A stretch of 64,000 bases of DNA from assembly GCF_009914755.1 (NCBI RefSeq), contig NC_060935.1. One strand, given 5' to 3'. The notes below the pieces were generated by a model. It ran no database searches. It was given only the letters and a program-made list of their open reading frames with translations, and was not told the origin of the DNA. Each line of letters starts with the position of its first letter. The stretch's first letter is position 1. Shown piece after piece: positions 7,641 to 10,213 of this stretch. The position numbers were made by a program, and so were the translations under genes. This stretch comes from the human T2T-CHM13v2.0 reference genome, Homo sapiens.

Positions 7641-8012
7641 GGACACATCTCAAACTGTGACCCATGAACCAGCAGGTATTGGCGTCACCTGGGATCCTGA
7701 CGTTAGTCTCTGTCAATCCTTCTCTTTAGTTCATCTATTCTACCCAAAGTGATCTCATCATCTGGTATGCTGTTAGCAGTTTCTTACCTGTATAGTATCT
7801 TCCAAATAACATGCCCCAAAATCCCAAAGTTTTACCCCTACTAATTACAGCAATGTCTCTTTTATTCTTCACCCCCTGACGCAGATATTGGCGTCACCCG
7901 AGAGCATGTTAGTAATGCAGAATCTCCCCTCCCCAGAACTACTAAATAGCACCTGAAATTTTAACAAGATCCCCATGTGATTCATGTGCACATCAAAGTT
8001 TGAGAAACACTA
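7641..8012 (+). mobile_element. MER5A/MER5A1 hAT DNA-transposon fossil, split by the 188-bp insertion
   Basis: tctcaaactgtg...cacctggga [insert] ...tgttagtaatgcagaatctc...ttttaacaagatcccc...aaagtttgagaaacact. Confidence 0.8.
7693..7880 (-). repeat. Inverted duplicate of CD3G intron 5 positions +1 to +188 (10026-10213)
   Basis: Reverse complement aligns without gaps to 10026-10213; 11 mismatches in 188 by hand alignment. Confidence 0.95.
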
Positions 8013-8095
8013 CTCTAATGATCTCCTGGTATGCAGAAGCAGGGAGAATTTCAGAGGCAAGATCCTTAATAGAACCACGGCTTTTCTCATTTCAG

Positions 8096-8323
8096 GAAAC
8101 CACTTGGTTAAGGTGTATGACTATCAAGAAGATGGTTCGGTACTTCTGACTTGTGATGCAGAAGCCAAAAATATCACATGGTTTAAAGATGGGAAGATGA
8201 TCGGCTTCCTAACTGAAGATAAAAAAAAATGGAATCTGGGAAGTAATGCCAAGGACCCTCGAGGGATGTATCAGTGTAAAGGATCACAGAACAAGTCAAA
8301 ACCACTCCAAGTGTATTACAGAA
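8096..8323 (+). CDS. CD3G: CD3 gamma exon 3 (Ig-like domain)
   Basis: [19 protein letters not shown]...GMYQC...LQVYYR; tttcag acceptor, A|gtatgt donor; 228 nt. Confidence 0.97.
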
Positions 8324-8904
8324 GTATGTAATCCCCTTTGGTCTGTTTGTTGTGAAATTAATCAGTATTTGCTGTTCTGGTGAGCTTTTTATCTGGGGTG
8401 AAAGTGGAAATAGATCCTCAACAGTAATATTATCGCCTGTTCTCTTAATTTCAGCTTGCCTCTTTTAAAATACTGTAAGATACTTCCCTCACCCTATTGA
8501 AAAACTACAGCCAGTCCTGTAAAATTTTGTTTACCTTTGGGTGGGCTCCATGGATTCAAGCAATTCAGCACTGAGTTGAATGAAGGGGTTGGGGAGACAG
8601 AGGTGATCATAAGGTGAGCAGCAGTGAGAACTGGAGCGCAGTGGAGCATGAAGAGTATCTAGTCTTCCTTCTGTTCCAGATACTTCCTGGTAGTTAGACT
8701 ACATGGGCTTCCCCAGGAATCCTGGGGGACTTAAGAGCATCAAGATGCATTGAGTTTTGGCGCAAGGATCTTCCCTTGCCCTGCCACCCACAGAGGAAAA
8801 GCCTGCTGCCCTCCACAGCGGCATTATTGCAGACAGGCAGGAGAAAACGAACCAGGAAAAACAACTTTCGCAACCTGAAGGTTTGTCTCTCCTTTTCCCT
8901 ACAG

Positions 8905-9036
8905 TGTGTCAGAACTGCATTGAACTAAATGCAGCCACCATATCTGGCTTTCTCTTTGCTGAAATCGTCAGCATTTTCGTCCTTGCTGTTGGGGTCTACT
9001 TCATTGCTGGACAGGATGGAGTTCGCCAGTCGAGAG
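8905..9036 (+). CDS. CD3G: CD3 gamma exon 4 (CxxC stalk, transmembrane helix with Glu)
   Basis: (M)[43 protein letters not shown]; 132 nt. Confidence 0.97.
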
Positions 9037-9262
9037 GTAAAAGAATGCTCTTAGATGAGAGATGGGACCACCTGAGACCCTCAGCTTTCCTCCTACCATT
9101 ATGTACCCAATAGAAGAGACTGAGTTGGTGCTTCTTGCTAGTGTGCATAGTTGGGTGAGGCTGTATTTCTCTGAGACAGGAGAAAGGATACTTGGTGTTA
9201 TCACAGCATGTTCACCTGTCTCAAGATACAGCTCCCTCTGTGAAAAAAAAAAAAAAAAAAAA

Positions 9263-9560
9263 CAGGCGCAGTGGCTCACGCCTGTAATCACAACACTTTG
9301 GGAGGCCGAGGCGGGCAGATCACGAGGTCAGGAGATCGAGACCATCCTGGCTAGCACGGTGAAACCCCGTCTTTACTAAAAATACAAAAAATTAGCCGGG
9401 CGTGGTGGCGGGTGCCTGTAGTCCCAGCTACTCTGGAGGCTGAGGCAGGAGAATGGCATGAACCCGGGAGGCGGAGCTTGCGTGAGCCGAGATCGTGCCA
9501 CTGCACTCCAGCCTGGGCGACAGAGCAAGACTCCGTCTCAAAAAAAAAAAAAAAAAAAAA
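9263..9560 (+). mobile_element. AluY-like element in CD3G intron 4
   Basis: gagatcgagaccatcctggcta, ggagcttgc diagnostic positions; CpGs retained; A-runs on both sides. Confidence 0.92.
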
Positions 9561-9981
9561 CTATTTTAAGTAAACCCTTACATACAGAAAAGTGAATCAC
9601 AAGCATACAGCTCAAAAAAAAAATTCACAGAGCAAATACACCCATGCAGCCAGCACATAATTTAAGAAAGACAATATTACCAATGCCATTGAAGCCCCTC
9701 CTGTGGTCACTTCCAGCCACTACCCATCCTCAAGAGTGAGCATTGTCCTGACTTCTAACAACAAGGATTAACTTTGCTTGTTTTTGTCCTTTATGTAAAT
9801 GGACTCATATACTAAGTATTCTTGTGAGTAGCTTCTTTCACTCAACAACATGTTTATGTGCTTTATCCATACTCTTGTGTATATATAAAACTCTTATTGT
9901 TATTTAGTATTCCATTTTGTGAATATAACCCAATTTATTATGCATTCTACCTTGTGTGGATTCTGTTTCTTTTTTGTGCAG

Positions 9982-10025
9982 CTTCAGACAAGCAGACTCT
10001 GTTGCCCAATGACCAGCTCTACCAG
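9982..10025 (+). CDS. CD3G: CD3 gamma exon 5 (di-leucine motif, first ITAM tyrosine)
   Basis: (A)SDKQTLLPNDQLYQ; tgtgcag acceptor, CAG|gtaagg donor; 44 nt. Confidence 0.96.
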
Positions 10026-10213
10026 GTAAGGGGATGAAGAATAAAAGAGACATTGCTGTAATTAGTGGGGGTAAATCTTTGGGATTGAGGGGCATGTTAT
10101 TTGGAAGATCCTATACAGGTAAGAAACTGCTAACAGCATACCAGATGATGAGATCAGTTTGGGTAGAATAAATGAACTAAAGAGAAGGATTGACAGAGAC
10201 TGAGGTCAGGATC
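10026..10213 (+). repeat. Source arm of the 188-bp inverted repeat (5' end of CD3G intron 5)
   Basis: Begins at the donor GT; complementary to 7693-7880. Confidence 0.95.

What the first reader, a model, noticed from the sequence alone, without database searches (positions are those of the whole stretch)
7693..10213. 188-bp non-Alu inverted repeat brackets CD3G exons 3-5 and covers the intron 5 donor
Seen: the reverse complement of 7693-7880 (intron 2) aligns ungapped to 10026-10213 (intron 5, +1 to +188) with 11 mismatches (~94%) and a ~46-nt perfect core. One arm ends 215 nt before the exon 3 acceptor; the other starts at the exon 5 donor GT. Established: long complementary intronic sequences flanking exons promote back-splicing, exon skipping and ADAR editing. 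Inference: CD3G pre-mRNA can fold into a ~190-bp duplex. That could yield a 404-nt exon 3-4-5 circular RNA, or mask the exon 5 donor (mismatches at +3 and +9 would let the end fray). Exon 5 skipping would give ...QSR-APQGSRR-stop (TGA 10778-10780), lacking the di-leucine motif and ITAM, 61 nt before the last junction (borderline NMD). This could be a lineage-specific cis element tuning CD3 gamma supply to the TCR. I do not know of it being described but cannot search.
Basis: partly seen in the sequence, partly recalled or inferred. Interest (0 to 1): 0.9.

Follow-up and report, generated by a model that had tools for sequence, protein, structure and literature searches.

The report
Unique inverted intron copy inside CD3G
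A 188-base stretch from the very start of CD3G intron 5 was copied backwards into intron 2 in a primate ancestor, so the unspliced RNA can zip into a long double strand, but nothing yet shows that this changes how the gene is spliced.

Summary
Bases 7693-7880 and 10026-10213 are an ungapped 188-nt inverted repeat with 11 mismatches and a 46-nt perfect core. A whole-genome search finds only these two copies, so it is not Alu or another dispersed repeat.

New here: the intron 2 arm is the derived copy. It interrupts an old dispersed repeat and is flanked by a 23-bp target-site duplication, 20 of 23 identical. The copied segment starts exactly at base +1 of intron 5. It has no poly(A) tail and no LINE-1-type target site. 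I favour a cDNA of the excised intron as template (about 0.5) over a replication template switch (about 0.35).

The duplex is thermodynamically dominant: -319 kcal/mol, and 177 of 188 cognate pairs in the folded pre-mRNA. No functional evidence was found. No CD3G circle appears among 6,228 high-confidence blood-cell circRNAs. RefSeq lists no isoform lacking exon 5. No paper describes it. It is most likely a largely neutral passenger that may be an ADAR editing substrate. Interest is moderate, and lies mainly in its origin.

The parts
10026..10213 (+). Source arm: the first 188 nt of CD3G intron 5 (+1 to +188), beginning at the donor GT
   Evidence: Homology with the intron 2 arm covers query positions 127-314 of 9900-10290, which is exactly +1 to +188.
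7693..7880 (-). Derived arm: an antisense copy of intron 5 +1 to +188, inserted in intron 2. It reads in intron-5 sense on the minus strand. Bases 7693-7694 (GA) are shared with the left duplication copy, giving 2 nt of junction ambiguity or microhomology.
7672..7694 (.). Left copy of the 23-bp target-site duplication (GCAGGTATTGGCGTCACCTGGGA)
   Evidence: 20 of 23 identical to the right copy; both copies map to the same positions of other copies of the host repeat
7881..7903 (.). Right copy of the target-site duplication (GCAGATATTGGCGTCACCCGAGA), directly abutting the base complementary to intron 5 +1
7650..8013 (.). Old dispersed host repeat in intron 2, split by the insertion. The name MER5-type DNA transposon fossil is recalled and comes from no tool.
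   Evidence: 441 first-look candidates, 40 scored; 39 non-self matches at 74-83% identity; sub-threshold Rfam mir-544 hit at 7888-7981
8096..10025 (+). Bracketed block: exons 3 (8096-8323), 4 (8905-9036) and 5 (9982-10025), 404 nt of exon in all, with introns 3 and 4
   Evidence: plus the annotation supplied with the finding
10023..10030 (+). Authentic exon 5 donor, CAG|GTAAG. In the duplex, +4 to +8 are paired and +3 and +9 are mismatched.
10116..10123 (+). Second CAG|GTAAG donor-like motif at +91 to +98 of intron 5, inside the 46-nt perfect core. Its complement CTTACCTG lies at 7783-7790 in the intron 2 arm.
10778..10780 (+). TGA reached if exon 5 is skipped, 61 nt before the exon 6/7 junction

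Best explanation
This is a genome-unique, lineage-specific intragenic inverted duplication.

Shown: a 186-188-nt copy of the first bases of CD3G intron 5 (+1 to +188) sits in antisense orientation inside an old dispersed repeat in intron 2. It is flanked by a 21-23-bp target-site duplication and has no poly(A) tail. Intron 5 is therefore the source and intron 2 holds the derived copy.

Inferred, origin: because the copied segment begins exactly at the first base of the intron, the most likely template was excised intron 5 RNA, as lariat or debranched. It would have been reverse-transcribed up to its 5' end and joined into a staggered break a few kb away in the same gene, in the germline of a primate ancestor some 10-30 million years ago.

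Inferred, present behaviour: in pre-mRNAs that still carry intron 2 when the start of intron 5 is transcribed, the arms can zip into a 188-bp, 94% duplex. The donor emerges first, and the helix end is weakened by mismatches at +3 and +9. U1 can therefore usually win, and normal splicing dominates. The expected consequences are A-to-I editing of both arms and at most low-level back-splicing or exon 5 skipping. It is a largely neutral passenger, not a demonstrated regulator.

My odds: real derived insertion 0.95; RNA template 0.5; no major effect on CD3 gamma output 0.7.
For: Repeat and uniqueness:
- 188 nt, 94% complementary.
- A search of the whole 3.1-Gb genome with 10026-10213 gave 2 of 2 scored candidates, self and the intron 2 arm.
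- A search with 9900-10290 gave 6 matches. Only one concerns the arm, and it covers exactly +1 to +188.

Direction of copying:
- The right flank 7881-8030 belongs to a dispersed family: 441 candidates, 40 scored, 39 non-self at 74-83%.
- In local alignments to 9 other copies, the left flank end and the right flank start map to overlapping positions in 6. The overlaps are L011 22 nt, L006 19, L010 18, L008 13, L005 11 and L012 8.
- The two 23-mers match at 20 of 23 positions.

Boundary at +1:
- Nothing matches 5' of the GT, and the duplication copy abuts it directly.
- The chance that the relevant end of a randomly placed segment in this 10.8-kb gene falls on +1 of one of the 6 introns is 0.0006, or 0.0017 allowing one base either way.
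- At the other end there are only 2 nt of ambiguity (GA). There is no A tract at either junction.

Precedent:
- Tailless retropseudogenes keep the 5' end of the source RNA and are truncated at the 3' end. They lack an A tail and carry 8-35-nt duplications (PMC5322556, passages).
- Intronic RNA is a known template for heritable templated insertions (PMC5110952, passages).

Structure:
- Cofold energy is -318.8 kcal/mol, against -83.5 (sd 5.4) for 30 shuffles.
- In the minimum-energy fold of 7380-10841 (3,462 nt), 177 of 188 positions pair with their cognate base.
- Neither arm folds notably on its own (z = -0.15).

Little function:
- There are 0 CD3G, CD3D or CD3E rows in the supplements of a ribo-depleted B-cell, T-cell and monocyte circRNA study that lists 6,228 high-confidence circles, including UBE4A, KMT2A and LCK.
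- RefSeq's second CD3G transcript differs only at the exon 7 acceptor (annotation given with the finding).
- The exon 5 donor is near consensus.
Against: Against an RNA template:
- CD3G is T-cell specific, and a heritable insertion needs the RNA in germline or early embryo.
- Landing 2.1 kb from the source would be very unlikely for an RNA acting in trans, and is natural for a DNA-level local event.
- The target is not the A/T-rich LINE-1 endonuclease site. In element sense the duplication starts TCCC, preceded by ATGC. Class 1 insertions prefer TTTT/A and tailless ones an A-rich motif.
- Primer-to-RNA complementarity at +188 is only 2 nt.
- No report of an insertion templated by a lariat was found. 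The LINE-1 chimera preprint has 0 occurrences of 'lariat'.

Against neutrality:
- At equilibrium the donor is largely occluded. Positions +4 to +8 pair with probability 0.87-0.95, and -1 to +2 pair with nearby flank bases at 0.83-0.94.
- The perfect core covers a second strong donor-like motif.
- The circRNA evidence is indirect. It is a filtered list of 6,228 out of 68,007 detected circles. Other catalogues could not be read: the supplements for one search were closed and the paper for one search is not held.
- No RNA-seq, editing or primate comparison could be run here.
Confidence: 0.5

Rival explanations
1. Same structure, but made at the DNA level. During replication or break repair, a nascent strend end in intron 2 switched to the complementary strand 2.1 kb away. 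It copied 188 nt and returned 23 bp behind its point of departure, as in MMBIR or FoSTeS template switching. This leaves an inverted copy plus a short duplication. The match to intron base +1 is then a coincidence.
For: - The copy is inverted and the template lies nearby in the same gene.
- There is no poly(A) and no LINE-1-type target site.
- There are 2 nt of microhomology (GA) at the +188 junction.
- The described MMBIR templated-insertion signature is an inverted copy near its template, flanked by microhomologies (PMC8421209, passages).
- Template switching is documented in great-ape genome evolution (PMC5453318 and PMC7954356, search listing only).
- It needs no germline expression of a T-cell gene.
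- The excess of transversions, 7 of 11 differences (P = 0.039 against an expected one third), fits error-prone synthesis, though it fits reverse transcription equally well.
Against: - The copied segment ends exactly at intron +1. The chance is 0.0006-0.002.
- There is no microhomology at that junction.
- The events searched for were inverted copies with templates within 100 bp, not 2 kb.
- A clean 23-bp duplication directly abutting both ends looks more like filling of a staggered break.
Confidence: 0.35
2. The duplex is a lineage-specific cis-regulatory element of CD3G. By pairing introns 2 and 5 it promotes a 404-nt exon 3-4-5 circle, or masks the exon 5 donor so that exon 5 is skipped. Skipping gives a frameshifted product that is a borderline target for nonsense-mediated decay. 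Either way it would lower or tune CD3 gamma supply to the T-cell receptor.
For: - It is the strongest and only intron 2 to intron 5 pairing in the gene.
- It dominates the predicted fold.
- Donor positions +4 to +8 are paired at 0.87-0.95 at equilibrium.
- Inverted repeats of 30-40 nt suffice for circularisation in minigenes (PMC4201285, abstract).
- Intron 2 carries no Alu, so no Alu pair competes for exactly this exon block.
- Recalled, not tested: nascent-RNA studies place human splicing some kb behind the polymerase, so intron 2 may often still be present when intron 5 is made.
Against: - No CD3G circle is among 6,228 high-confidence blood-cell circRNAs, although CD3G is among the most expressed T-cell genes (the expression level is recalled).
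- There is no RefSeq isoform lacking exon 5 (supplied annotation).
- There are no papers.
- A helix covering the donor should inhibit its use in back-splicing too, and stronger hairpins can reduce circularisation.
- The donor is near consensus and is transcribed before the rest of its arm.
- The 6% divergence between the arms is what neutral decay would give, and there is no sign of selection for pairing. Two mismatches in the first 9 positions is not unusual (P = 0.09).
Confidence: 0.13
3. Both arms are ordinary copies of a dispersed repeat family that happen to face each other, as with inverted Alu pairs.
For: The gene is full of Alu pairs of similar length at 73-90% complementarity. The flank of the intron 2 arm is itself a dispersed repeat.
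Against: Whole-genome searches return only the two arms (2 of 2 candidates). Identity of 94% is higher than for any Alu pair in the gene. No Rfam or Alu-type hit falls within either arm. Caveat: the genome tool skips very common words, but a 188-nt family member would still be seen, as the host repeat was.
Confidence: 0.02

Closest known systems
Reverse-complementary intronic sequences (inverted Alu pairs and non-repeat matches) flanking circularised exons
   Same: Complementary stretches in the two introns that flank an exon block. They are far longer than the 30-40 nt shown to suffice (PMC4201285, abstract) and are the best pairing available across that block.
   Different: It is not a transposable-element pair but a single-copy duplicate of the gene's own intron. 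One arm starts on the donor itself instead of lying at a distance. No back-splice product is documented.
Tailless retropseudogenes (LINE-1-mobilised, 3'-truncated RNA copies without an A tail; Noll et al. 2015, PMC5322556)
   Same: The 5' end coincides with the 5' end of a defined RNA species (here the excised intron). The copy is truncated at the 3' end, has no oligo(A), and its flanking duplication lies within the 8-35-nt range at 87% identity.
   Different: The source would be an intron, not a small structured RNA. The target lacks the A-rich motif. Priming complementarity is only 2 nt. The insertion lies 2.1 kb from its source.
Templated sequence insertions and polymorphisms, class 1 and class 2 (Onozawa and Aplan 2016, PMC5110952)
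   Same: A short stretch of non-repetitive, partly intronic sequence copied from elsewhere and inherited through the germline. RNA is the proposed template.
   Different: It fits neither class. It has the duplication of class 1 but not the poly(A) or the TTTT/A site. It has the minimal-homology junctions of class 2 but also a duplication. The donor is local, not distant.
MMBIR / FoSTeS templated insertions (PMC8421209; PMC2621351 by listing only)
   Same: An inverted copy of a nearby template, with microhomology at one junction.
   Different: It is 188 nt copied from 2.1 kb away, where the surveyed class used templates within 100 bp. The second junction has no microhomology. One end lies exactly on a splice-site boundary.
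Donor-occluding RNA structures (MAPT exon 10 stem-loop, SMN2 terminal stem-loop 2; recalled, not looked up)
   Same: Base pairing that includes donor positions +4 to +8 and could compete with U1.
   Different: Those are short local hairpins with shown splicing effects. This is a long-range helix whose far arm is transcribed 2.1 kb earlier, and no effect has been shown.

Membership tests
Intronic inverted repeats that drive exon circularisation | Complementary sequences lie in the introns on both sides of the exon block | tested here: met
   Arms lie in intron 2 (7404-8095) and intron 5 (10026-10757)
Intronic inverted repeats that drive exon circularisation | Pairing of at least about 30-40 nt that can form in the pre-mRNA | tested here: met
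   188 nt, -318.8 kcal/mol; 177 of 188 cognate pairs in the 3,462-nt fold; threshold
Intronic inverted repeats that drive exon circularisation | A back-splice junction (exon 5 end to exon 3 start) is observed in RNA | tested here: inconclusive
   There are 0 CD3G rows among 6,228 high-confidence blood-cell circRNAs, but the list is filtered from 68,007. No raw RNA-seq is available, and other catalogues were closed or not held.
Tailless retropseudogenes | Flanking target-site duplication of 8-35 nt at 70% identity or more | tested here: met
   23 nt, 20 of 23 identical; criteria
Tailless retropseudogenes | No oligo(A) tail; 3'-truncated relative to the source RNA | tested here: met
   No A tract at either junction. 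The copy stops at +188 of a 732-nt intron.
Tailless retropseudogenes | The 5' end coincides with the 5' end of the source RNA | tested here: met
   The copy starts at intron base +1. That the source RNA was the excised intron is inference.
Tailless retropseudogenes | A/T-rich LINE-1-type target or priming motif | tested here: not met
   In element sense the duplication starts TCCC, preceded by ATGC. The motif is described.
Class 1 templated sequence insertion | Target-site duplication, plus poly(A) after a cryptic signal, plus a TTTT/A site | tested here: not met
   The duplication is present. Poly(A) and the TTTT/A site are absent.
Class 2 templated sequence insertion | No target-site duplication; end-joining-type junctions | tested here: not met
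   A 23-bp duplication is present. The junctions do have 0-2 nt of homology.
MMBIR-type templated insertion | Inverted copy of a nearby template | tested here: met
   Inverted, 2,145 nt away. The surveyed class used templates within 100 bp.
MMBIR-type templated insertion | Microhomology at both switch junctions | tested here: not met
   2 nt (GA) at the +188 junction and none at the +1 junction
Dispersed repeat pair (Alu-like) | Many copies elsewhere in the genome | tested here: not met
   Only the two arms exist in 3.1 Gb
ADAR hyper-editing substrate | Long, nearly perfect intramolecular duplex in an expressed transcript | tested here: met
   Expression in T cells is recalled knowledge.
ADAR hyper-editing substrate | Clusters of A-to-G mismatches in RNA reads over both arms | not testable with these tools
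   No RNA-seq or editing database is available. No paper was found.

The most novel reading that the evidence does not exclude
An excised CD3G intron 5 lariat was reverse-transcribed up to its branch-blocked 5' end. The cDNA was captured in cis at a staggered break in intron 2 of the same gene. That would be a heritable footprint of DNA insertion templated by intron RNA, a route not described in what I could search. The resulting primate-specific 188-bp clamp would now act in T cells. It would bury a second strong donor-like motif at +91 to +98 inside its perfect core, leave the true donor at a frayed end, attract ADAR, and set a low rate of exon 3-5 back-splicing or exon 5 skipping that trims CD3 gamma output.
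Probability: 0.07. Interest if true: 0.75.

Novelty: new member of a known kind. Interest (0 to 1): 0.4.

Why it matters
CD3 gamma is a limiting subunit of the T-cell receptor (recalled), so a human or primate-specific element that altered its splicing would matter for immunology. That is not shown here.

The firmer point is mechanistic. This is a clean, datable, single-copy insertion whose source begins at the first base of an intron. It has a long target-site duplication but no A tail and no LINE-1 site. If that pattern recurs genome-wide, it would show that excised introns can be copied back into DNA in the germline. It would add a class between LINE-1-mediated and break-repair templated insertions.

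The locus also gives a natural test of how a near-perfect, non-Alu, 188-bp intronic duplex that abuts a donor is handled by U1, ADAR and RNA helicases in a highly expressed gene.

Tried and rejected
- Dispersed-repeat origin was rejected by whole-genome searches.
- A structured small RNA (snoRNA, mirtron) in the first 188 nt of intron 5 could have explained retroposition. It was rejected. Rfam gave 9 matches at E of 1 or less in 7300-10900. None lies in an arm and all are below gathering score. The arm folds no better than shuffles (z = -0.15).
- Canonical LINE-1 retroposition was rejected: no poly(A) and no TTTT/A-type site.
- The left flank searched alone found only itself. The duplication was shown instead by aligning both flanks to other copies. 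In 3 of 9 copies (L004, L007, L009) the left-flank local alignment landed elsewhere at low score, and those copies are uninformative.
- Literature searches for a CD3G circle, for CD3G exon skipping (which returned unrelated papers holding 2 of the 3 terms) and for CD3G editing gave nothing relevant. My hg19 coordinates used as search terms were recalled and approximate.
- Searches for insertions templated by lariats gave no direct precedent.
- A word search of PMC5453318 for event sizes found none of my phrases.
- The search of earlier findings was not open.
The Blood Advances T-ALL circRNA paper is not held. Either could list a low-level CD3G circle.
- No primate or other mammalian genome is available in these tools, so presence or absence across species and polarity of the 11 differences could not be tested.
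Full report
**Observation**

The inverted repeat is exactly as described.
- The repeat finder lists arms 7693-7880 and 10026-10213 as 188 nt, 94% complementary, 2,145 nt apart. It is the second longest and by far the best-matched of 84 inverted pairs in 2000-14000. 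The other top pairs are Alu-Alu at 70-90%.
- The alignment is ungapped and stops sharply at both ends.
- There are 11 differences, and two would be G-U wobbles in RNA. The longest perfect run is 46 nt, at 10111-10156.
- The left arm ends 215 nt before exon 3. The right arm begins at G+1 of the exon 5 donor, CAG|GTAAGG.
- Exons 3-5 total 404 nt. Skipping exon 5 gives ...QSRAPQGSRR-stop at 10778-10780, 61 nt before the last junction.

**Not a dispersed repeat**

- A search of the window's own 3.1-Gb assembly with 10026-10213 returned two places only, the query and the intron 2 arm (E = 2.9e-76; 2 of 2 candidates scored).
- A wider query, 9900-10290, returned six places. These were self, the intron 2 arm matching query 127-314 (precisely +1 to +188), and four short 44-57-nt matches to 9901-9957 in intron 4 that do not touch the arm.
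- In a self-BLAST of the 64-kb window there were 2,366 non-self HSPs and three low-copy pairs of 60 nt or more. Only this one exceeds 90% identity.

**Which arm is the copy**

The DNA right of the intron 2 arm (7881-8030) belongs to an old dispersed family. The search gave 441 first-look candidates and scored 40, of which 39 non-self matches were at 74-83% identity. I recognise it as a MER5-type DNA-transposon fossil. That name is recalled and comes from no tool.

Aligned with nine other copies, the family sequence runs through 7881 onwards. The left flank, ending at 7694, matches the part of the same family just upstream.

The end of the left flank and the start of the right flank map to overlapping positions of the same copy in 6 of 9 comparisons:

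| Copy | Overlap (nt) | Left-flank score |
|---|---|---|
| L011 | 22 | 40 |
| L006 | 19 | 27 |
| L010 | 18 | 27 |
| L008 | 13 | 22 |
| L005 | 11 | 33 |
| L012 | 8 | 22 |

In the other three copies (L004, L007, L009) the short left-flank alignment landed elsewhere at score 18-22, and they are uninformative.

The duplicated stretch is 7672-7694 against 7881-7903, identical at 20 of 23 positions, and all three differences are transitions. The intron 2 arm is therefore an insertion with a 21-23-bp target-site duplication, and intron 5 is the source.

**Junction anatomy**

- On the minus strand the insert reads in intron sense, starting with the G of the donor GT directly after the duplication copy. 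No extra bases intervene and there is no homology to exon 5.
- At the other end, two bases (7693-7694, GA) could belong to either the insert or the target.
- There is no A tract at either junction.
- The target is not the A/T-rich site of the LINE-1 endonuclease (motifs as described).

**Origin**

The striking feature is the boundary at intron base +1. For a segment placed at random in this 10,812-bp gene, the chance that the relevant end falls on +1 of one of six introns is 0.0006. It is 0.0017 allowing one base either way, and 0.0022 for either end on any exon-intron boundary.

An RNA whose 5' end is +1 is the excised intron. A reverse transcriptase copying it would run off, or stop at the branch, exactly there. 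Precedents share most features:
- Tailless retropseudogenes keep the 5' end of their source RNA, are 3'-truncated, lack an A tail and carry 8-35-nt duplications (PMC5322556, passages).
- Intronic RNAs are among the templates of heritable templated insertions (PMC5110952, passages).

But this insert fits none of these classes cleanly. It has a duplication without poly(A) or a LINE-1 site. It also lies only 2.1 kb from its source, in a T-cell-specific gene that should be nearly silent in the germline.

Those last points favour the rival, a replication or repair template switch to the complementary strand nearby. That mechanism naturally gives an inverted local copy with a short duplication and microhomology (PMC8421209, passages; PMC5453318, PMC7954356 and PMC2621351 by search listing only). 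The rival does not explain the +1 boundary or the lack of microhomology at that junction.

I put the RNA route at about 0.5 and the DNA route at about 0.35. I found no published case of an insertion templated by a lariat. The yeast preprint on intron circles and transposition, PMC10996645, was seen only in the listing.

**Age**

- The Kimura distance between the arms is 0.061. The 95% interval of the raw difference is 3-10%.
- At 1.0-1.5e-9 substitutions per site per year (recalled rates), that is roughly 20-30 million years, with wide error.
- Seven of the 11 differences are transversions (P = 0.039 against an expected one third). Some differences may therefore be copying errors, which makes the date an upper bound.
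- No other primate genome could be consulted.

**RNA structure**

- The two arms co-fold at -318.8 kcal/mol, against -83.5 (sd 5.4) for 30 shuffles of one arm.
- In the minimum-energy fold of the whole exon 2 to exon 6 pre-mRNA (7380-10841, 3,462 nt, -1219.5 kcal/mol), 177 of 188 positions pair with their cognate partner. Two pair elsewhere and nine are unpaired.
- Neither arm is locked up by local structure. The arms fold alone at -16.9 and -31.4 kcal/mol, and z = -0.15 for the intron 5 arm.
- At equilibrium the donor is largely covered. Positions +4 to +8 pair at 0.87-0.95, +3 and +9 are open, and -1 to +2 pair with flank bases 7896-7898 at 0.83-0.94.
- The 46-nt perfect core contains a second CAG|GTAAG at 10116-10123. 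Its complement at 7783-7790 reads CTTACCTG.

**Does it do anything?**

The direct tests (RNA-seq, editing tables) are outside these tools. The indirect evidence is negative.
[quoted passage not shown] Its four supplementary files contain no CD3G, CD3D or CD3E entry, while UBE4A, KMT2A and LCK circles are listed (PMC6789028; supplement searches, file list, main-text passages).
- The RefSeq table supplied with the finding has two CD3G transcripts that differ only at the exon 7 acceptor.
- Full-text searches found no paper naming a CD3G circle or CD3G RNA editing.
- Minigene work shows that pairing of 30-40 nt suffices for circularisation, but also that more stable hairpins can inhibit it (PMC4201285, abstract). 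Here the helix sits on the donor that back-splicing would need.
- Kinetically (recalled knowledge), the donor is transcribed before the rest of its arm and is near consensus. U1 should usually bind first, leaving the helix to form from about +10 onward.

My committed reading is that the duplex forms on some transcripts, is probably edited by ADAR and unwound, and has little effect on CD3 gamma output (0.7). A real regulatory role gets about 0.13.

**Comparison and verdict**

In kind this is an intronic reverse-complementary pair flanking exons, a known architecture, so I file it as a new member of a known kind. It differs in three ways: it is a single-copy duplicate of the gene's own intron, it abuts a donor, and it carries a footprint that may record copying of an excised intron back into DNA.

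Its functional interpretation is plausible but unsupported. Its score of 0.9 is too high, and I score interest at 0.4, mostly for the origin question, which a genome-wide scan and primate alignments could settle.

Noticed in passing
window 10116-10123 (+) and 7783-7790 (-): A second exact CAG|GTAAG donor-like motif lies 93 nt inside intron 5, within the 46-nt perfect core of the duplex. Its complement in the intron 2 arm reads CTTACCTG, which matches 8 nt of the 5' end of U1 snRNA as I recall it. Use of this site would extend exon 5 into a stop after three codons (GTA AGG GGA TGA). The motif occurs 8 times in the window against 2.5 expected.
   Followed up: partly
window 7693-7880 vs 10026-10213: Seven of the 11 differences between the arms are transversions (P = 0.039 against an expected one third). 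Some may be errors made at copying rather than later drift.
   Followed up: partly
window 7888-7981 (-): Sub-threshold Rfam match to the mir-544 precursor family (40.2 bits, gathering score 66.5, E = 1.1e-5) inside the old host repeat of intron 2. It probably reflects a repeat-derived miRNA family and not a gene here.
   Followed up: no
window 33155-33488 and about 33155-34961 (UBE4A exons 9 and 9-10): The blood-cell circRNA table lists two UBE4A circles (hg38 11:118374896-118375229 and 11:118374896-118376694). The first has the length of exon 9. The mapping to window coordinates is my inference from length and is not exact.
   Followed up: no
window 4504-6272, 9291-9560, 10290-10603, 11880-12186, 12640-12986: Plus-strand Alus lie in introns 1, 4 and 5. 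Minus-strand Alus lie in intron 1 and twice in the exon 7 3' UTR. They form many inverted pairs at 73-90% (SRP-type Rfam hits give the orientation). The intron 5 Alu can pair with the 3' UTR Alus across exon 6.
   Followed up: no
window 13493-14000: A long array of an 8-10-nt unit lies directly after the CD3G 3' end (33 overlapping copies in family D1). It also scores as self-complementary (pairs I8, I9, I15, I24).
   Followed up: no
window 13115-13254 / 17020-17162 and 30003-30128: The only other low-copy pairs in the window are a 146-nt direct pair at 74% identity and a 65-nt tandem duplication at 86%.
   Followed up: no
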